Shown here piece by piece: positions 21,350 to 28,319 of a stretch of 64,000 nucleotides of DNA. The notes under the pieces were generated by a model. The model saw only the letters and a list, made by a program, of their open reading frames with translations. It was not told the DNA's origin and searched no databases. The DNA lies in the IMG/VR virus record IMGVR_UViG_3300035663_000001, positions 1-64,000 of that record; one strand, 5' to 3'. The DNA is from a virus. Position 1 is the first letter of the stretch; every line of letters starts with the position of its first letter. Both the position numbers and the translations under genes were made by a program.

Positions 21350-22015
21350 CGCGCTATAAAAATATGCCTCGTTATTTACAATTTTGAAACGTGATAAGAT
21401 ACTTTATCGTTTTTAACGTTTTTTTTTCTACCACTTTGTCCCACTTTTTACCATTTTTAGTGGATGATTACCTCTTTTTTGAGGCGTTTTGAGACCCAAA
21501 AAGTTCAATTGGCCCATTTTGAATTTTCAAAACACCTCTTTTGAAATTATTTAGTCAATCTATTGGGGAGTCCTAAGTTTAACTATGTACTTAGTTGAGA
21601 GTAGTAAGTTAATTTACTGCTCCAGTTGAGAATCTTAAGTTTCCTTAGTTAACTCTTTCACTTTTTACTTATTTTTAGTTGCTTAGTTAACTCTTTAACT
21701 CTGTTCTTATTTTAAGAGTTCTAAGTTTAAGAGTTCTAAGTTTACATATTTACTTATTTGCTTATTTAACTATTTGCTTATTTGGGAGGCCCCAAACCAG
21801 CCTGTCCCCCGAATCCCCCACCTTTTTCCAGCCCGGGAACCCATTAGGCATTCTTCTTGATTCTTAGCAAGAATCAAACCAACAACTAATCAAAGAATAA
21901 CTAACTATTAATTAATAACTTTATTAAGAAGTATTAACTTATTATTAATTAATTGCTTGGCATATTAATTGTTTTTTAGCAAGAAGCTTGCCAAGACTAA
22001 GTAATCTAGTCTTAG
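21350..22015. other. AT-rich non-coding region at strand/skew switch (candidate replication origin or genome end)
   Basis: No ORFs; divergent gene orientation; C-rich plus strand on the left, G-richer on the right; short repeats such as CTAAGTTTA and CTTAGTTAACTCTTT. Confidence 0.55.
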
Positions 22016-22053
22016 TTGGCATTGGTTTTGCTGACTAGCAAGGGACGGACCCT
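21845..22053. promoter_or_regulatory. Three head-to-head pairs of sigma54-like -24/-12 sites
   Basis: Pairs at 21845-21882, 21957-21994, 22016-22053 with GG-N10-G(C)-N6-GC-N10-CC spacing. Confidence 0.6.
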
Positions 22054-22254
22054 AGGACGAAGCGACCTTAAGAGAGCTCGCTTCGCTCTTTTCCCAGCGA
22101 CTAAGTTTTGTCACTGCTCCCTAGGGACGAGCCGTGTCTCTCTCGCCCGAAAAGGGCGCCCTGCTCCTCGCTGGAAAGCTCCCAGCGACTAAGTTTTGTC
22201 GCTCGGTCCTAGTGGTGAGCCCCAGTTCCTTCCCCTCTCACAGTGAGGTGTCTC

Positions 22255-22896
22255 ATGTCCGATGCCATCGATCGTCTACTCTCCGGTTTCGTCTCGGCCT
22301 ACGCTTCGCCCGAACCCACGAAGCAGCTGGTGGAAGTCAAGCCTCCCAAGACTCCAGCCTTCCGCAAGGCCAATAAGGAAGCTCCCACTTCCAGCCTGCT
22401 ACCTCGTGCGGAGCAGATCGACCATCGCGAGTACTTGGCGCGAACCAAGGTCGCAGGCTACATGACAGATCCTGCTGAGGTTCGTCACTTCAACCAAGAT
22501 GCTCATCGCAGCGACATGATCGCAGCGATCAACGCTTTCATCGGCTACGATGTCAGCAAAGACTTCGGCTCTCAGGAATTCCAGGCTCGCAGCCTGGCTG
22601 CTCGTCAGGCTCGCCAAGAGCGAGGGGAGCATCTTCCGGCGGTCTCTAAAACTGAGAAGCAGGAAGCGGCTCGACTCCAGGCTTCGATCCAGGGGTACGT
22701 TTCGGGAGTGCCTGACACGGTCAGCACGCATCGGAACAACCTGGAAGCGAGAGAGCGGCTGGCAGTGGCGGCCATCATTCAGCACGAGCGAGAGGCGGAA
22801 GCGGCTCCGCTCTTCTCGGAAGCGCGCGCCAAGGCAACTGCCCTGGCGCAGTTGGAGCGGGAACGTCTGGTGGAGATCCGCAAGGATCTGTACTGA
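22255..22896 (+). CDS. Hypothetical early protein
   Basis: GAGGTG RBS before MSDAIDR; follows repeat motif. Confidence 0.75.
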   Translation: MSDAIDRLLSGFVSAYASPEPTKQLVEVKPPKTPAFRKANKEAPTSSLLPRAEQIDHREYLARTKVAGYMTDPAEVRHFNQDAHRSDMIAAINAFIGYDVSKDFGSQEFQARSLAARQARQERGEHLPAVSKTEKQEAARLQASIQGYVSGVPDTVSTHRNNLEARERLAVAAIIQHEREAEAAPLFSEARAKATALAQLERERLVEIRKDLY

Positions 22897-23053
22897 GACG
22901 AGCCAGAACAGGAAAGTTATCTCCCATGCCTGACTAACCATTACGCTGGTGCTCAACTTCTTGAGCGTCAGCGGTGGCCGACTCAGCTGTTGCAGACAAG
23001 AACAGGAGCCCTGGCTGATCACCAGGATCTCCTGTTTGGCTTTTTGTTGTTGA

Positions 23054-23168
23054 TTGGCCTAAGAATTGCTAATCTCAATTCTGGTGCCAGTTAAGACTTC
23101 ATTCTAAACTCATGTGGTTGGATGTTTAAGGTTGGCCTATTCATTGCTAAGAGCAGGAAGCAAGCCAG
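23054..23168. promoter_or_regulatory. Two head-to-head sigma54-like site pairs
   Basis: 23054-23090 and 23132-23168. Confidence 0.6.
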
Positions 23169-23352
23169 GAAACATGAGTGCATGAGAGAGCTCGAAGCGA
23201 GCTTCCCAGCGACTAAATTTTTTCACACACCCCTAAGGTTGCCGATGTGGCACGGAACGAAAGGATGGTTTGCAGATTGCTCGGGCAATCTCCCAGCGAC
23301 TAAGTTTTTTCTCGCAGTCCTAGTAGTGAGCCTAGCGCTCAGAAGGATTCAC

Positions 23353-23592
23353 ATGTTGTTCCTGAATGAGGAAGACTACTACGATTGGTTGGAGGAAACT
23401 TCCTTTCCCAATGATACTTGGGAGGAAGAGCGGCGTATGGCGCACCAGTTCGCCAAACAAGAGCGGCTGCAAGAGGAAGCGGAAGAAGAAGAGCGGTTCC
23501 AGGCGCAGCAACGAGATCCGTGGAGAGCGGTGTGTCGAGCCTGGGGACCTTGGGAGCCGGTGTGTCAAGAGGAGCATCCGATTCCGTTCTGA
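23353..23592 (+). CDS. Acidic hypothetical protein
   Basis: AAGGA RBS before MLFLNEED; flanked by repeat motif. Confidence 0.7.
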   Translation: MLFLNEEDYYDWLEETSFPNDTWEEERRMAHQFAKQERLQEEAEEEERFQAQQRDPWRAVCRAWGPWEPVCQEEHPIPF

Positions 23593-23636
23593 CTCCCAGC
23601 GACTAAGTTTTTTTCTCGCAGCCTGAGAGGTGTCTC

Positions 23637-23924
23637 ATGAAGATGGAATATTTGGTCATCAATCCTCTGTTTCCGAAGTGGGATCCGTTGCTGCCGACGG
23701 TGGAGCGGAAAAAGTGGATTCTTCCCAATCATCGAATGGCCAACCAAGTGATGATGCGCCAGATCCAGAAACTGGATCCGTTTCAAGCTTGGGAGGAAAA
23801 TAGACGCTCAGAGGAAGAGAGAGAGGAAGAGGAAGCAGAGCGTTGGATATTCGAGGAATCTCGTGTCCAGAGGGAAACAATGGCGCTCGCGGAAGTTGCC
23901 CGTAAGAGAAACCTCTGGAAGTAA
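23637..23924 (+). CDS. Hypothetical protein
   Basis: GAGGTG RBS; follows motif. Confidence 0.7.
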   Translation: MKMEYLVINPLFPKWDPLLPTVERKKWILPNHRMANQVMMRQIQKLDPFQAWEENRRSEEEREEEEAERWIFEESRVQRETMALAEVARKRNLWK

Positions 23925-23930
23925 AAAGGA

Positions 23931-23960
23931 GAGCCGGTTAGCCGGCTTTCTTGTTTTTCT
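23931..23960 (+). terminator. Intrinsic terminator
   Basis: GAGCCGG-TTAG-CCGGCTT plus T-rich tail. Confidence 0.7.
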
Positions 23961-23963
23961 GTC

Positions 23964-24071
23964 TTGGTCTATTAATTGCAGTCTGCATAATAGATGCCAA
24001 TTGAGTTCTGACTTTTTACCTGGGATGTACTTGTTGGCACACAAATTGCAGCCTAGCAAGGCTCATGCCAG
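23964..24071. promoter_or_regulatory. Two head-to-head sigma54-like site pairs
   Basis: TTGGTCTATTAATTGC-AGTCT-GCATAATAGATGCCAA and TTGGCACACAAATTGC-AGCCTA-GCAAGGCTCATGCCAG. Confidence 0.65.
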
Positions 24072-24286
24072 ACTCCCAGTCACCTTAAGAGGGAGCTCAG
24101 GTTTTCCCAGCGACTAAATTTTTTCGCACACCCCTAAGGTTGCTGATGCGGTACGGATGAACGAAAGGATGGTACGCGGATTGGGGCAATCTCCCAGCGA
24201 CTAAGTTTTGTCACCTACACCTAACGATGTAACACGATGCGTTAGGTTCCCAGCGACTAAGTTTTGTTTCACATGCCTATGATTGA

Positions 24287-24360
24287 GGCCCGGTGACGGA
24301 ATGGCAGACGTGGCGGTTTTAAAAACCGCTTTCTTGTGGGTTCGACTCCCACCCGGGCCA
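24287..24360 (+). tRNA. tRNA-Leu(TAA), short variable region
   Basis: GGCCCGG/CCGGGCC acceptor, GCGGT-TTTAAAA-ACCGC anticodon arm, GTGGG-TTCGACT-CCCAC T arm. Confidence 0.85.
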
Positions 24361-24394
24361 CCCAGCGACTAAGTTTTGTCAAAGGAGACTACAG

Positions 24395-24568
24395 ATGAGC
24401 AAGTTGTTGGTGGTGGTAGCGGCCATGTTTGGGGTGGTGATGGCGATCAAGATGTTTGCTCCTGCGGCCTGGGTCGCAGGGTTCACCATTCCGATCGGCA
24501 GTGGGATTCAGTTCCCCTGGGCGCTGGTCATCCTGGGAGGGTTCTTCTATCTGGTGTGGACCAAGTGA
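24395..24568 (+). CDS. Small membrane protein (57 aa, not in ORF track)
   Basis: AAGGAG RBS; MSKLLVVVAAMFGVVMAIKMF...FFYLVWTK. Confidence 0.7.
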   Translation: MSKLLVVVAAMFGVVMAIKMFAPAAWVAGFTIPIGSGIQFPWALVILGGFFYLVWTK

Positions 24569-24711
24569 TCTATCGCTTGGTAATCAAACATCCCACGGGA
24601 GTACTCCGTCTAGACTACTCCTCTCTGTCAGCTGCCCAACAAGAGCTGTCCCGTTTCCAACGGGACCACTGGGAGGGTTGGATTCAACCCATTCCACAGA
24701 GGAAGTCATGA
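24565..24711 (+). CDS. Small hypothetical protein
   Basis: GTGA overlap with upstream stop. Confidence 0.5.
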   Translation: MIYRLVIKHPTGVLRLDYSSLSAAQQELSRFQRDHWEGWIQPIPQRKS

Positions 24712-24809
24712 TGCGTGAGGGTGCGGTGCTGGTGTTGGTGGCGGTCCTGCTGTCTTTGCTGGTGGGCTGGTGTTTGGGGAACGCCTTTCTGTGGTCCCTT
24801 GGCGGATGA
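24708..24809 (+). CDS. Small single-helix membrane peptide
   Basis: GAGG RBS, ATGA overlap, hydrophobic. Confidence 0.5.
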   Translation: MMREGAVLVLVAVLLSLLVGWCLGNAFLWSLGG

Positions 24810-24847
24810 CTCCCAGCGACTAAGTTTTTTCTCCCGGAGGTTAAAAG

Positions 24848-25213
24848 ATGAATGCACTCCAGTTGAATCAACTCTTGGACGAATGTCCTCGTGAGACCCG
24901 ACATCTGGCACAAGCTTGGTATCAAGCCTCGCAACAGATTCGGAAGATGTCTCATGGCATCGATCCAGATCACATCCGACCCTTGGGCGATGACGAAACC
25001 GTTCTTTTGGTGGAACGTGCGGAAGGCTTGTGTGTGTGGCAGCAACGAGAAGCGATGGTCAATCTCTTTGCGGCTCCTCACATGAGTCCTCCCAAGTTCT
25101 TCATCATCGAATGTCTGAAGATCGATCAACAGATCGAATTCCACCTGGCTGTCCAGCGGGTGCAAGATCTGGGTCCAGACTACGTTTTTCGAGAGCTGTG
25201 TAAGTCCAAGTAG
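24848..25213 (+). CDS. Hypothetical protein
   Basis: GGAGG RBS; follows motif. Confidence 0.75.
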   Translation: MNALQLNQLLDECPRETRHLAQAWYQASQQIRKMSHGIDPDHIRPLGDDETVLLVERAEGLCVWQQREAMVNLFAAPHMSPPKFFIIECLKIDQQIEFHLAVQRVQDLGPDYVFRELCKSK

Positions 25214-25598
25214 TCAAACCTACTACTGGCGTTGACTCAACCTCCTACGTATAGGAATAAGTGATGCCACCGCGCTAGGATAGTTTCGTCATCCCTCCGG
25301 ACCACCAGCTCGTAAAGTAGGCTGCGGTGGCTGACGAAACGATAACCCTGATAGTTTACCTGGTCCAGATGTGAACAATCAAAAAAGTGTGTGTTTTGGT
25401 GTAAAACTCTATCACAGATAATAATAGGGTTATCGATATGTGAAGTTCACATTACATAGTTGCATCCTCGGGAAGCATCCGCTACGCTGACAGTCTCAGG
25501 TAGCTCTAGGTGTTAATCCCCTTCTGTCCCATGAGACGCCGGACATATCTGGGTCATTGTCGTGACAGCCCCTAATCCATTAACCCTAAAACGGGTGG
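25214..25598 (+). ncRNA. Candidate large structured ncRNA
   Basis: ORF-free, several long-range complementary segments, ends at a terminator. Confidence 0.5.
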
Positions 25599-25631
25599 GC
25601 CTCGCTTCTCTTCGGAGAGCGAGGCTTTTTT
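25599..25631 (+). terminator. Intrinsic terminator
   Basis: GCCTCGCT.CTC-TTCG-GAGAGCGAGGC plus T6. Confidence 0.85.
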
Positions 25632-25641
25632 CGTTTCTACC

Positions 25642-25815
25642 TTGGCCTTGTCTTTGCATTCTGCAATCTGTAGACCACTTACTTGATTCCTCTCATCTAT
25701 CACACATACTCTTACCTTGGCATACCTATTGCTAATAACAGGAAGTAGACCAGTAAAGTTTTACCAGGAATGCACTTAATGGCATCTTAATTGCAATTAG
25801 CATAAAGTGAGCCAC
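25642..25815. promoter_or_regulatory. Three head-to-head sigma54-like site pairs
   Basis: 25642-25678, 25717-25753, 25779-25815. Confidence 0.65.
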
Positions 25816-25904
25816 GGAGTCACTCACCTAATACGCGTAAAGGGAATTCCCAGCGACTAAATTTTGTCACCTACCCCTATGGTTGCCGATGCGACACGAT
25901 ACGA

Positions 25905-25920
25905 TGGCACGCAGGTTGCT
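25905..25920 (+). promoter_or_regulatory. Consensus sigma54 site TGGCACGCAGGTTGCT (second copy 26076-26091)
   Basis: Exact match to TGGCACG-N4-TTGC(A/T). Confidence 0.65.
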
Positions 25921-26152
25921 AAGTCAACTTCCCAGCGACTAAGTTTTGTCACACTCTCCTAAGGGTGCGAGACGATGCGAAAGGATGAACGCGCTACTGG
26001 CACGCTACTGGCTGACACGGTTTCCCAGCGACTAAGTTTTGTCACTCTCCCCTAAGGATGCAAGACGCGAGCGGATGGCACGCAGGTTGCTAAGTCAACT
26101 TCCCAGCGACTAAGTTTTGTCGCTCTTCCCTCATGATGCGAGACGGTAACTA

Positions 26153-26204
26153 AGGCGAAACCATCTGAGATGGTCTAATGGTAGGAACCATTACTGACGA
26201 GCCT
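26153..26204 (+). ncRNA. Type II hammerhead ribozyme (minimal)
   Basis: AGGC-GAAA-CCATC/GATGG-TC^-TAATGGT/ACCATTA-CTGACGA-GCCT; predicted cleavage after 26175. Confidence 0.85.
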
Positions 26205-26296
26205 AACTAGTCTACGAAACACCAGCACTAGTCTTAAGTGTCGTGTTGGTCACTAGGAGGGATCATACCCTCGGCAGTGGTGATACTACTTGGCCA

Positions 26297-26362
26297 GTCT
26301 TCTGGCATGACGGAGCCTTGGTGTGGTAACCAAGCCAGGTTCGATACCTGGAGAAGACCCCA
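26297..26362 (+). ncRNA. Minimal tRNA-like element
   Basis: GTCTTCT/AGAAGAC acceptor, CCAGG-TTCGATA-CCTGG T arm, non-canonical D and anticodon arms, ends C-CCA. Confidence 0.6.
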
Positions 26363-26426
26363 GCGACTAAATTGTGATCTCGAAGTCTGACATGGTGTGA
26401 GACTTCCCTACAGAAAGGATACCAGT

Positions 26427-27041
26427 ATGACGCCCAAGATGTTTTTGCACAAGTCGGGAACCAAAGCGGCGGCTTCGGCCAGTGCCTTCCTGGCGGCTCA
26501 CCGGACCTTTCTGGAAACGGGAGAGCTCTATCCGGTCACCGGCCCGATTCTGGCCAAGTTGGATGCCAAAGAGCTGATGCCGACTCCGGCCTTGTCGGAA
26601 TTGCGTCAAGTGATTCTCAATCACATGATTGCCTCCGAAGTGTCCAAGTTGGAGCGAGCGCACGAAGTGACGGAGCGCACGCCCAAAAACTGGCAAGTCA
26701 CCATCTATACCTCCGAAGGCAAGGTGGCGCAACGTTTCAAGACCGAGGACCAGGAATGGGTGGATCTGGTGGCCGAATTCGACCAGCCCCAAGAGGCCGA
26801 TCGTTGGGCGGACCGACGATTGTTCGAGGGTGAGCACGATTGGTTTGCCGTGGTGTCTCATGCCACGCAACTCAACAAGCATGGTCAACTGCTCTCCTCT
26901 ACCATCACTCGTCAGGATGCCATGGCACGAGTCTTGGCATCCAAGCCTGGACCCGTGATCAAGGGTCAAGCCAAGTCGTCGGGTCGGTTGGGATGGGGCG
27001 TCAAGTCGAAACCCAGTGTCAGCAAGTTTTCGGCGGGCTGA
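26427..27041 (+). CDS. Hypothetical protein
   Basis: AAGGA RBS; flanked by repeat motif. Confidence 0.75.
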   Translation: MTPKMFLHKSGTKAAASASAFLAAHRTFLETGELYPVTGPILAKLDAKELMPTPALSELRQVILNHMIASEVSKLERAHEVTERTPKNWQVTIYTSEGKVAQRFKTEDQEWVDLVAEFDQPQEADRWADRRLFEGEHDWFAVVSHATQLNKHGQLLSSTITRQDAMARVLASKPGPVIKGQAKSSGRLGWGVKSKPSVSKFSAG

Positions 27042-27148
27042 GTCCCAGCGACTAAATTTGGTCGCACTTTCCTGTCTGACACGAGACGACAGGTAGTGAC
27101 ACGGTTTCCCAGCGACTAAGTTTGGTTACACTTCCCTACAGGTGGAAC

Positions 27149-27337
27149 ATGCAAACCCGGGAACAAGGCAACTGGTATCCAGCCAATGGTGGGACGGAAG
27201 AGGAATTCGTTACCCGGACGGGCAGAAGGCTGCTCTATTGTTGGCAACCGAGCACTGGGCGCCATGCCTATCTCGACTGCTCCACCGACCTGATCCTCTC
27301 CGAGGAGGAAGCTTCTCAAGTTCTTAATCTCTCTTAA
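27149..27337 (+). CDS. Hypothetical protein
   Basis: AGGTGG RBS before MQTREQG. Confidence 0.65.
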   Translation: MQTREQGNWYPANGGTEEEFVTRTGRRLLYCWQPSTGRHAYLDCSTDLILSEEEASQVLNLS

Positions 27338-27384
27338 CAACAACAACAACAACAACGGTTTCAGGTTTCAGAGGAGATACGCAT

Positions 27385-27819
27385 ATGTCCAGTTTTTCGA
27401 TCAACGTGGTTCTGGTTCGTGATGAGGTGACGGGTGAGGTGGATGAGGCTGCGACCACGCAGGCATTCCAGATGGCACTGAGCCGCTACAAGGCCCAGCG
27501 TGAGCTGGAGGACACCACCATCGGATCGAATGTCCATGCGGCTTTCGATCAGTATCCCGGTGTGTTTCTGCCGATGGAGAGTCTGATCAGTGGGGTGGTC
27601 CAGGCTCTCAATCCGACTCCGGAGAACTTCTCGGTGCTGAAGGAGAAGGTGACGGCCTACATCCACGACAACGCCGACCGTCAGGAGAAGAAGGATCGCA
27701 AGTCGGGTGAGGTCATCCAGCTGGCTGAGCCTCCTCGCACCCGAGCTTTCGGGATTCGCAGGGGCAAGGGTGGTGGGATCTGTCGGTGGTCCGACGTGAA
27801 GGAGAAGGCGGAGAAGTGA
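27385..27819 (+). CDS. Hypothetical protein, paralog of 47410..47829
   Basis: GAGGAG RBS; shared AEPPRTR.FGIR.G.GGG.CRWSD. Confidence 0.8.
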   Translation: MSSFSINVVLVRDEVTGEVDEAATTQAFQMALSRYKAQRELEDTTIGSNVHAAFDQYPGVFLPMESLISGVVQALNPTPENFSVLKEKVTAYIHDNADRQEKKDRKSGEVIQLAEPPRTRAFGIRRGKGGGICRWSDVKEKAEK

Positions 27820-27828
27820 AGTGACACA

Positions 27829-27873
27829 TCCACCAGGTTCCTAGGTTCACTCTGGTGAACCTGGTGGGTTTTC
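27829..27873 (+). terminator. Hairpin / probable terminator
   Basis: CCACCAGGTTC...GAACCTGGTGG followed by TTTT. Confidence 0.55.
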
Positions 27874-27874
27874 T

Positions 27875-28023
27875 GACTCAATGACAGAATGGTTTCTGTT
27901 TCCAATTAGTACTGATTGGAAGTGAATACTCAGGGTGAGTGTTCACCGACTCAGTATGTTGGCCAAAGGATCGATACGATGGTCAGCATATCTATGAGTG
28001 TAGGTTCGATTCCTACCTGAGTC
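27875..28023 (+). ncRNA. Expanded tRNA-like RNA, copy 1
   Basis: GACTCA/TGAGTC acceptor, ACAGA-ATGGTT-TCTGT D-like arm, three internal hairpins, GTAGG-TTCGATT-CCTAC T arm. Confidence 0.7.
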
Positions 28024-28028
28024 TCCCC

Positions 28029-28140
28029 CCCGACAGAATGGTTTCTGCTGTTTATCTACAGGTTCGCTGAGCTTGATTCTGAGGTACGGGTCGACACGAC
28101 TCAGAGTTAAGTCTTGGTGTAGGTTCGATTCCTACTCGGG
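28029..28140 (+). ncRNA. Expanded tRNA-like RNA, copy 2
   Basis: CCCGA/TCGGG closing stem, same D-like and T arms. Confidence 0.6.
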
Positions 28141-28149
28141 CTTTTTTTT

Positions 28150-28319
28150 GACTCAATGACAGAATGGTTTCTGTTTCCTGTAATTAGTTCACATTAGTTC
28201 ACACAGGAAGTGAACACTCAGGTGTACCCTCAGTGTTTGCCGACTCAGTTAGGTTCTGGTTAAAAGGTACACGTTTGCCAGCATCTAGCTGAGTGTAGGT
28301 TCGATTCCTACCTGAGTCA
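28150..28319 (+). ncRNA. Expanded tRNA-like RNA, copy 3
   Basis: Acceptor, D-like and T arms identical to copy 1, divergent internal hairpins. Confidence 0.7.

What the first reader, a model, noticed from the sequence alone, without database searches (positions are those of the whole stretch)
25214..25631. Candidate ~400 nt pseudoknotted ncRNA
Seen: ORF-free region ending at a strong terminator. GCCACCGC (25266-73) pairs with GCGGTGGC (25324-31) and crosses GTTTCGTCA (25283-91)/TGACGAAAC (25332-40), a pseudoknot order. Also CGATAACCCT (25340-49)/AGGGTTATCG (25426-35), GGACCA (25299)/TGGTCC (25361), and possible loop-loop GTCTCA (25493)/TGAGAC (25532). I cannot assign it to a known class. Inference: a novel large structured RNA or ribozyme.
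Basis: partly seen in the sequence, partly recalled or inferred. Interest (0 to 1): 0.7.

Follow-up and report, generated by a model that had tools for sequence, protein, structure and literature searches.

The report
Orphan structured RNA in lake phage
A roughly 450-base stretch without genes in a large lake-water phage folds better than chance and turns up in RNA libraries, so it is probably a new non-coding RNA, but no relatives were found to test its proposed fold or show what it does.

Summary
All five complementary pairs are at the stated coordinates, no ORF covers 25214-25512, and a strong intrinsic terminator sits at 25596-25631. Perfect inverted repeats of 8 nt or more: 5, against 0.73 in shuffles (0 of 2000 reach 5). 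The two 6-mers (GGACCA, GTCTCA) are at chance level.

New here: a bulged helix (25184-25202 with 25453-25476) closes a 293-nt domain. This domain folds better on the + strand (z -4.05) than on the - strand (z -2.46).

Contigs from three metatranscriptome runs of two studies lie on 25184-25595 at 99% identity or more.

No Rfam family matches, GOLLD and ROOL included. No relative was found in phage, viral, metagenome or genome collections, so covariation cannot be tested. A rough energy estimate puts the pseudoknot (helix A crossing helix B) level with or slightly below the nested fold, so it stays unproven. Nothing points to a ribozyme.

Best reading: the structured, non-coding 3' part of an early phage transcription unit that also carries tRNA-Leu. 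That is a new orphan instance of the abundant, tRNA-adjacent phage ncRNAs of unknown function.

The scan has not noted this sequence on other DNA.

The parts
24811..24833 (+). Copy of the phage's repeated motif (TCCCAGCGACTAAG TTTT...), the last copy upstream of the RNA; a possible phage promoter or processing signal
   Evidence: 20 matches in the window against 0.08 expected. 26 copies of the 10-nt core in the genome, all on the + strand. Its function was not tested.
24848..25213 (+). Upstream ORF of 121 aa with a GGAGG ribosome-binding site and a TAG stop; its last 30 nt form the 5' arm of helix P1
   Evidence: The only match among 5.8 billion proteins is itself.
25184..25476 (+). Domain I: 293 nt closed by P1, holding five hairpins including B and C
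   Evidence: MFE -91.4 kcal/mol, z -4.05, 0 of 200 shuffles as good. Reverse strand z -2.46, 2 of 200.
25184..25202 (+). P1, 5' arm
   Evidence: Pairs with 25453-25476 (10 + 9 bp, five G.U, 5-nt bulge). Pair probability 0.83-0.97 whichever 5' limit is folded, including the whole transcript from 24829. Best bulged helix is 20 bp; 0 of 300 shuffles reach 20, shuffle maximum 19.
25453..25476 (+). P1, 3' arm
25266..25273 (+). Helix A, 5' arm (GCCACCGC); competes with the local hairpin 25227-33 / 25263-69
25324..25331 (+). Helix A, 3' arm (GCGGTGGC); crosses helix B
   Evidence: Duplex energy -16.0 kcal/mol. Probability 0.004 in the nested ensemble, because it crosses B. Opening cost 14.5 kcal/mol.
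25283..25291 (+). Helix B, 5' arm
   Evidence: Pair probability 0.87-1.0
25332..25340 (+). Helix B, 3' arm, directly following A'
25340..25349 (+). Helix C, 5' arm, directly following B'
   Evidence: Perfect 10-nt repeat. Probability about 1.0 for the 8 inner pairs; the end pairs 0.13 and 0.62.
25426..25435 (+). Helix C, 3' arm
25438..25452 (+). Perfect 7-1-7 palindrome ATGTGAA-G-TTCACAT: a 6-bp hairpin in the RNA, or a protein-binding site in the DNA. A third ATGTGAAC lies at 25369-76.
   Evidence: I8, I11; probability 0.84
25477..25596 (+). Domain II: hairpin 25481-25504 and long hairpin 25507-25588; weakly supported
   Evidence: z -1.73, 13 of 200 shuffles as good
25596..25631 (+). Intrinsic terminator: GC-rich stem, UUCG loop, T6
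25642..25732 (+). Two -24/-12 (sigma-54-like) TTGG-N8-TTGC sites that open the next unit, 11 nt after the terminator. Context, not part of the RNA.
   Evidence: 13 sites in the window against 2.29 expected, 0 of 100 shuffles. 9 lie in 21.8-25.8 kb, three pairs of them just after terminator-like sites.

Best explanation
A structured non-coding RNA segment of about 410-450 nt (about 25184-25631, + strand). It forms the 3' end of an early transcription unit of a large lake-water phage.

Shown:
- The stretch has no coding capacity.
- It carries more long self-complementary segments than chance.
- Its first 293 nt form a domain closed by a bulged 19-20-bp helix (P1) that needs G.U pairs and so exists only on the + strand.
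- It ends in a strong intrinsic terminator.
- It is present in RNA libraries.

Inferred:
- It is transcribed with the upstream genes. The unit starts after the terminator at 23927-23952 and also carries tRNA-Leu(UAA).
- The compact domain I and the terminator hairpin make this part outlast the coding part.
- The RNA then acts as an RNA, most likely as a scaffold or decoy for a host or phage protein or RNA. This would resemble the abundant, tRNA-adjacent phage ncRNAs (GOLLD, ROOL, the phage K lncRNAs), whose functions are also unknown.
- The A/B pseudoknot is one possible conformer, not an established feature.
For: - Non-coding.
- Excess complementarity: 5 repeats of 8 nt or more against 0.73; 0 of 2000 shuffles reach 5. 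About the 98th-99th percentile of the genome.
- Domain I: z -4.05 on + (0 of 200), -2.46 on - (2 of 200).
- P1 is stable to the choice of 5' limit; 0 of 300 shuffles reach it.
- Whole stretch: z -3.0.
- Terminator.
- RNA libraries: X17 contig 25184-25583 (400 nt), X18 25377-25595, X19 25213-25405 and 25439-25572. All are 99% or more alike. That is 4 of the 9 RNA pieces laid on 3601 nt; by bases 400 of 564 (X17), 219 of 377 (X18) and 327 of 592 (X19), on a stretch that is 11% of what was laid. It has the highest contig depth in each of the three runs.
- The X17 contig starts at 25184, the first base of P1.
- Context: tRNA-Leu at 24287-24362 lies in the same unit. -24/-12-like sites follow the terminator.
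- Precedent: ROOL and GOLLD are phage-encoded, often near tRNA islands, with no function described (passages of PMC12286853). Phage K has two abundant lncRNAs beside tRNA genes (passages of PMC9241854).
Against: - No homolog was found, so no covariation: the fold rests on one sequence.
- In 200-nt windows the region's z is only -0.4 to -2.3, while other parts of the early region score -3.6 to -7.8.
- Domain II is not significant.
- 8 of 184 genome windows do as well in the repeat test.
- The RNA runs were found with this very stretch as bait, so their presence is partly selected.
- Contigs give neither strand, ends nor level. Contig depths are low (2-6). The tool warns that DNA can sit in RNA libraries.
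- No promoter of its own was recognised.
- Nothing shows action in trans.
Confidence: 0.5

Rival explanations
1. A structured 3' UTR that works only in cis. It protects the upstream early mRNA from 3' exonucleases and, with the terminator, insulates the next unit. The RNA-library signal is a degradation-resistant tail with no role of its own.
For: It shares its terminator with the upstream ORF, and no promoter of its own was found. P1 starts inside the ORF. Another early unit also has a strongly folded stretch between its stop codon and a terminator-like site: 22900-23099, z -6.9.
Against: About 380 nt is long for a stabiliser. Two other early units end with a terminator within about 25 nt of the stop codon (terminators at 23927 and 27841), so a long tail is not a general need. 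The contiguous 26-nt strand that pairs with three partners looks more elaborate than a protective hairpin.
Confidence: 0.27
2. Non-functional spacer. The complementarity is a statistical tail, and the RNA contigs reflect ordinary read-through transcription of an early region.
For: 4% of genome windows reach a similar repeat excess (8 of 184). Local z-scores are modest. Conservation cannot be shown. The RNA runs were selected with this stretch as bait.
Against: 0 of 2000 shuffles reach the repeat count. Domain I z is -4.05 with an asymmetry between strands. The three long helices share one continuous strand. Three RNA runs of two studies place contigs on the same 400 nt. The rest of the early region is tightly packed with genes, motifs and tRNA-like elements.
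Confidence: 0.15
3. A DNA-level element, such as operator sites for a phage regulator on the ATGTGAA(C/G) repeats, or another protein-binding region, with transcription incidental.
For: A perfect 7-1-7 palindrome at 25438-25452 plus a third ATGTGAAC at 25369-76. A 1-nt spacer suits a dimeric DNA-binding protein better than an RNA hairpin.
Against: The long helices A, B, C and P1 span 50-290 nt, which is not how operator sites are laid out. P1 needs G.U pairs. The GC-skew turn and AT-rich repeats that would mark an origin or genome end lie at 21.3-22.0 kb, not here.
Confidence: 0.05
4. A self-cleaving or other catalytic RNA.
For: Size and a possible pseudoknot only.
Against: No ribozyme family of Rfam matches at E <= 10. 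The CUGACGA in 25331-37 is not followed by a hammerhead-type stem II and GAAA (my reading). No joints or sharp ends were seen in the laid contigs (tables 5 and 6), though contigs could hardly show them.
Confidence: 0.03

Closest known systems
ROOL and GOLLD RNAs (Rfam RF03087, RF02032)
   Same: Large structured ncRNAs encoded in phages and prophages, often near tRNA islands, with no function described; ROOL's predicted fold has multiple pseudoknots, and GOLLD is named 'lake-derived' (passages of PMC12286853). Here: a phage from lake-water metagenomes, with tRNA-Leu about 820 nt upstream in the same unit.
   Different: Neither covariance model matches anywhere in the 128.5-kb record at E <= 10 or in the region. 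This RNA is shorter, about 410-450 nt, against a 574-position ROOL model and GOLLD members that often exceed 800 nt (passage of PMC12286853). No multimer-forming features were tested.
Phage K (Kayvirus) lnc001 and lnc002
   Same: Abundant phage non-coding RNAs beside tRNA genes, one made from the promoter of the neighbouring tRNA gene, functions unknown (passages of PMC9241854).
   Different: No sequence comparison was made. Those RNAs are 635 and 1154 nt by the coordinates in the paper's Table 1, and the host is Staphylococcus. No similarity to any GenBank phage was found for this stretch.
3' UTR-derived bacterial small RNAs, and exonuclease-resistant 3' RNAs (flavivirus sfRNA/xrRNA); recalled, not from a call
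   Same: The RNA shares the terminator of an upstream gene. A compact, possibly pseudoknotted fold at its 5' side could make it outlast the coding part.
   Different: No processing site or stalled 5' end was shown. Bacterial 3' UTR sRNAs are mostly under 150 nt. No xrRNA-type fold was tested.
Y RNAs bound by Ro60/TROVE (recalled)
   Same: The 5' and 3' ends of domain I pair into a long bulged stem. The phage carries a TROVE-like ORF at 93.1-93.8 kb (24.5 bits against a cut-off of 23).
   Different: No Y RNA family matched. Domain I is several times larger than known Y RNAs. The gene lies 68 kb away. No Ro-binding motif was tested.

Membership tests
ROOL (RF03087) | Match to the family covariance model | tested here: not met
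   No match at E <= 10 in the whole 128.5-kb record, and none in 24800-26300 at E <= 10. The control genomes did not ring either, so the search shows no match rather than proving absence.
GOLLD (RF02032) | Match to the family covariance model | tested here: not met
   No match at E <= 10 in the record; 17 candidates were scored. None.
ROOL/GOLLD-like kind (phage lncRNA by tRNAs) | Encoded in a phage, close to tRNA genes | tested here: met
   Virus record. tRNA-Leu at 24287-24362. tRNA-like T-arm elements at 26330-26360 and 27998-28320.
ROOL/GOLLD-like kind (phage lncRNA by tRNAs) | Conserved, covarying secondary structure across many members | not testable with these tools
   No homolog was found.
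Any Rfam 15 family | Match at the gathering score or at E <= 10 | tested here: not met
   In the window only 4 tRNAs reach the gathering score. The 5 matches in 24800-26300 have E 1.3-5 and lie 24 bits or more below their cut-offs.
H-type pseudoknot | Two helices in crossing order | tested here: met
   A 25266-73/25324-31 and B 25283-91/25332-40.
H-type pseudoknot | Both helices form at the same time | tested here: inconclusive
   Estimate 1: with the A bases unpaired the MFE is -77.4; helix A stacks add about -21; a penalty of +9.6 (recalled) gives about -89, against -91.4 for the nested fold. Estimate 2: opening 14.5, duplex -16.0 to -20.1, penalty 8.1 (recalled), net +2.5 to +6.6. The loop between A' and B' is 0 nt, and the 9-nt loop 1 would have to span 17 bp. 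By my own geometry estimate this is unusual but not impossible.
Intrinsic (rho-independent) terminator | GC-rich hairpin directly followed by a U run | tested here: met
   25596-25631: 9-10 bp plus 3 bp stem, UUCG loop, T6.
3' UTR-derived sRNA | Shares the terminator of an upstream coding gene | tested here: met
   The ORF ends at 25213 and the only terminator before the next unit is at 25596-25631.
3' UTR-derived sRNA | A defined 5' end from processing or an internal promoter | not testable with these tools
   Contigs show no ends. No sigma-70-like site was found there.

The most novel reading that the evidence does not exclude
A founding member of a new class of large phage RNA that acts as an RNA machine. 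Three possibilities: an exonuclease-resistant, knotted 3' RNA that a phage builds up as a decoy (a bacterial-virus counterpart of flaviviral sfRNA); an RNA-only assembly like the ROOL and GOLLD cages; or a partner of the phage's own Ro60-like protein. In any of these, helices A and B would form a true, unusually wired pseudoknot (zero-length junction, one 26-nt strand shared by three helices).
Probability: 0.12. Interest if true: 0.8.

Novelty: new variant of a known kind. Interest (0 to 1): 0.45.

Why it matters
Large structured phage RNAs near tRNA genes (GOLLD, ROOL, the phage K lncRNAs) are among the least understood abundant RNAs, and each new unrelated example narrows down what they have in common. 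This one sits in the earliest-looking region of a phage that appears rich in RNA biology: tRNAs, tRNA-like elements and a Ro60-like gene. It is small enough for probing and cryo-EM, and it already has metatranscriptome support. Its weakness is that it is an orphan. Without relatives the fold, the pseudoknot and any function remain hypotheses, so for now it is a well-defined candidate rather than a discovery.

Tried and rejected
- Flanks in RNA runs. In the three RNA runs laid, no contig covers 23963-25172 or 25657-26140, while DNA run X16 covers parts of both. The 5' starts of RNA contigs in two studies (25184 and 25213) are 29 nt apart, and DNA run X16 goes on across that place in two contigs. 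That is at most a weak hint of a 5' limit. At the 3' side X19 has a loose end (adapter letters after 25572) and X16 has no cover, so there is no hint. As I recall, those adapter letters are the read-2 type, which in a dUTP-stranded library would mean a + strand RNA. The library type is unknown, so I do not count it.
- DNA variants for covariation. X16 showed no differences in the region (table 3).
- Coding readings. With TAG=Q the upstream ORF only extends 17 aa, to a TGA at 25262-64. No other frame exceeds 54 aa on +. The 110-aa TGA=W frame on the - strand is not credible, since neighbouring genes end in TGA.
- Recoding stimulator. No slippery site and no downstream frame (my reading).
- Anti-RBS idea. 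The CCUCC boxes at 25241 and 25294 are not predicted to pair with the ORF's ribosome-binding site in the full transcript.
Only ATTACAT occurs here (25451), and that 7-mer is common in the genome through a coding repeat.
- Paralogues. No similarity to any other part of the genome or to seven other non-coding stretches.
- Sliding 200-nt z-scores do not single the region out.
- Searches for relatives, all empty:
  - blastn against phages;
  - the proteins at 24848, 26397 and 28677 in viral contigs;
  - the protein database, which returned only the query itself for the 121-aa ORF, and for the 629-aa protein its own cluster plus two DUF6745-domain matches;
  - the motif in viral contigs (21 single matches), metagenome contigs (17) and genome contigs (16), with no further similarity to the window apart from one weak tblastx match at 49042-49218;
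  - tblastn of the 629-aa protein against phages;
  - the best helicase relative, Rctr197k, at 38.7% identity, which lacks the motif.
- Hammerhead reading of CUGACGA at 25331-37: rejected by eye; no Rfam match.
- PF00940 (single-subunit RNA polymerase): no match in the record, but the controls did not ring either, so this says nothing.
- Papers. One literature search only. I saw passages of PMC12286853 and PMC9241854, no supplements. I did not search print for this RNA, so I make no claim that it is unpublished.

Full report
Context. The window is the first 64 kb of a 128,541-nt IMG/VR virus record that CheckV rates 28% complete. Near-identical DNA is held by lake-water and freshwater metagenome runs.

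Bases 22.0-28.4 kb look like an early region on the + strand, built of short transcription units. Each unit has the same parts:
- -24/-12 (sigma-54-like) TTGG-N8-TTGC sites just after the previous terminator: 13 in the window against 2.29 expected, 9 of them in 21.8-25.8 kb;
- copies of a 23-nt phage motif: 20 in the window against 0.08 expected, and 26 copies of its core in the genome, all on the + strand;
- small orphan ORFs, a tRNA-Leu(UAA) at 24287-24362, and tRNA-like elements;
- an intrinsic terminator.

The stretch in question is the last element of the unit that starts after the terminator at 23927-23952. It lies between the TAG stop of a 121-aa ORF (24848-25213) and the terminator at 25596-25631.

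Observation. A (8 nt), B (9 nt) and C (10 nt) are more than chance. The stretch without its terminator has 5 perfect inverted repeats of 8 nt or more against 0.73 in shuffles, and 0 of 2000 shuffles reach 5. Exactly-6-nt repeats (D and E belong here) number 9 against 9.3 expected. A', B' and the 5' arm of C are one unbroken 26-nt strand (25324-25349) that pairs with three separate partners.

The signal is strong but not unique in this genome. 8 of 184 windows reach p <= 0.01 in the same test, and the region's excess sits near the 98th-99th percentile. No ORF of 40 aa or more lies in 25214-25512, and recoding TAG or TGA opens nothing credible. The stretch is single-copy.

Structure. Nested folding gives z -3.0 for 25214-25631 on the + strand and -3.5 on the - strand. 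That comparison includes the terminator, which is symmetrical between the strands.

25184-25202, the last codons of the ORF, pairs with 25453-25476 in a bulged helix of 10 + 9 bp with five G.U pairs (P1). P1 keeps pair probabilities of 0.83-0.97 whether folding starts at 24829, 25100, 25150 or 25184. No shuffle reaches it: best bulged helix 20 bp against a shuffle maximum of 19, 0 of 300.

The 293-nt domain it closes has z -4.05 on + (0 of 200 shuffles) but -2.46 on - (2 of 200). This argues for an RNA of the + strand. Inside the domain, B and the inner eight pairs of C have probabilities of about 0.9-1.0. The 3' part, 25477-25596, is not significant (z -1.73). In 200-nt windows the region is unremarkable, because its helices are long-range.

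Pseudoknot. A crosses B, so nested folding cannot show it (probability 0.004). Forcing A in a nested fold instead of B costs 3.8 kcal/mol.

Two rough estimates price the knotted form:
- with the A bases kept unpaired the MFE is -77.4; the helix A stacks add about -21; a recalled penalty of 9.6 gives about -89, against -91.4 for the nested fold.
- ensemble opening cost 14.5, duplex -16.0 to -20.1, a recalled penalty of 8.1; net +2.5 to +6.6.

So the knot is level with or slightly worse than the nested alternative, in which 25263-69 pairs with 25227-33. Its wiring is also unusual. The junction between A' and B' is 0 nt, so the 9-nt loop 1 would have to run the length of a 17-bp stack. By my own geometry estimate this is possible but strained. 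A and B may equally be alternative conformers. D as a loop-loop contact is also not favoured.

Transcription. The run search listed four metatranscriptome runs that hold 9-17% of the sampled words of 24300-26400. I laid three of them, and a DNA run, on 23600-27200.
- RNA-library contigs at 99% identity or more lie on 25184-25583 (X17, 400 nt), 25377-25595 (X18), and 25213-25405 and 25439-25572 (X19). These come from two studies.
- They are 4 of the 9 RNA pieces laid. By bases they are 400 of 564, 219 of 377 and 327 of 592, on a stretch that makes up 11% of what was laid.
- In each of the three runs they have the highest contig depth (5.9, 5.97, 6.2, against 2-3.1 for the other pieces).
- The other RNA pieces lie on 23600-23870, 26201-26358 (a tRNA-like element) and 27000-27200.

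Caveats: the runs were found with this stretch as bait; contigs show neither strand, ends nor level; depths are low. I take this as fair support that the stretch exists as RNA and is among the better-represented parts of the early region, and no more than that.

Known families and relatives. No Rfam 15 family matches at the gathering score or at E <= 10. The ROOL and GOLLD models find nothing in the whole record. Every search for relatives was empty:
- phage DNA;
- neighbouring proteins in viral contigs and in 5.8 billion proteins;
- the phage motif in viral, metagenome and genome contigs;
- GenBank phages by protein.

Interpretation. The evidence fits a non-coding, structured RNA segment at the 3' end of an early unit. 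It is most likely co-transcribed with the upstream genes and tRNA-Leu and ended by the terminator.

Whether it acts in trans or only in cis is open. In trans it would be a stand-alone ncRNA. In cis it would be a protective or insulating 3' UTR. I favour the first moderately, for three reasons: its size, the elaborate shared-strand arrangement, and the precedent of abundant tRNA-adjacent phage ncRNAs (ROOL and GOLLD, passages of PMC12286853; phage K lnc001 and lnc002, passages of PMC9241854).

The phage also carries a TROVE/Ro60-like ORF. That makes an RNA-protein partnership conceivable but is no evidence for one. A DNA-level reading is suggested only by the 7-1-7 palindrome at 25438-25452. 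A ribozyme reading has no support.

Verdict. This is a real and reasonably well-bounded candidate for a new, orphan phage ncRNA. The boundaries move to about 25184-25631. The pseudoknot and any function are unproven. Interest is moderate: it could feed the open question of what large phage RNAs near tRNAs do, but at present nothing can be tested comparatively.

Noticed in passing
window 22092-28333, also 47202, 54881, 61562; genome 71108-96216: A bipartite motif, TCCCAGCGACTAA(G/A)TTTT... followed about 15 nt later by CCTA: 26 copies of its core, all on the + strand and nearly all between genes (one core-only copy at 45873 lies inside an ORF). Several start right at the 3' end of a tRNA or tRNA-like element (24360, 26358, 28322). 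It forms tandem arrays with 56-93-nt spacers that resemble each other. It could be a promoter for a phage-directed polymerase or an RNA processing signal; undecided.
   Followed up: partly
window 21867-25732: TTGG-N8-TTGC (-24/-12, sigma-54-like) sites: 13 in the window against 2.29 expected. 9 are clustered in the early region, three pairs of them on the + strand just after terminator-like sites. Sigma-54-type early promoters would be unusual for a phage.
   Followed up: partly
window 26150-26360 and 27900-28320: tRNA-like elements with GGTTCGAT(T/A)CC T-arm boxes that ARAGORN and Rfam do not call as tRNAs. An RNA-library contig (X18) covers 26201-26358. 27800-28299 folds very strongly, z down to -7.8.
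   Followed up: partly
window 55943-56018; 25211-25264: A tRNA with anticodon CUA, a TAG suppressor that ARAGORN labels Pyl. The ORF upstream of the RNA ends in TAG. Read-through would add 17 aa and stop at a TGA one base before helix A. Whether the phage recodes TAG late in infection was not examined.
   Followed up: no
window 1-64000: GC content is 0.30-0.46 over 1-22 kb, jumps to 0.54 at 22 kb, then falls steadily to about 0.36 by 62 kb. The + strand is extremely C-rich at 18-22 kb (GC skew down to -0.67).
   Followed up: no
window 22900-23099: The stretch between the stop codon at 22896 and a terminator-like site also folds strongly: z -6.9, with a 13-bp perfect hairpin and a long bulged hairpin. 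It may be a second structured 3' element; it has no sequence similarity to the one studied.
   Followed up: partly
window 25900-36200: Other first-stage notes place hammerhead ribozymes at about 26175, 30603, 31549 and 35954. A permissive Rfam scan of this stretch found no hammerhead or other ribozyme family at E <= 1.
   Followed up: partly
genome 93107-93832 (beyond the window): A 520-aa open frame matches Pfam TROVE (Ro60) at 24.5 bits against a cut-off of 23. A phage-encoded Ro60-like protein suggests partner RNAs somewhere in the genome.
   Followed up: partly
window 5343-7088 (- strand): A ThyX thymidylate synthase interrupted by an intein with an HNH endonuclease domain.
   Followed up: no
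window 28677-52759 and many other places in the genome: Many proteins carry short DUF6745 matches and a repeat whose DNA reads ...AAATTACATCGAGAAGATGGTCC..., seen dozens of times across the genome. This is a large expanded repeat-protein family.
   Followed up: no
window 24104-24209: Contigs of DNA run X16 break or carry loose ends at the motif copies, and show a 3-nt insertion after 24183. This is assembly ambiguity or real variation between the motif arrays.
   Followed up: no
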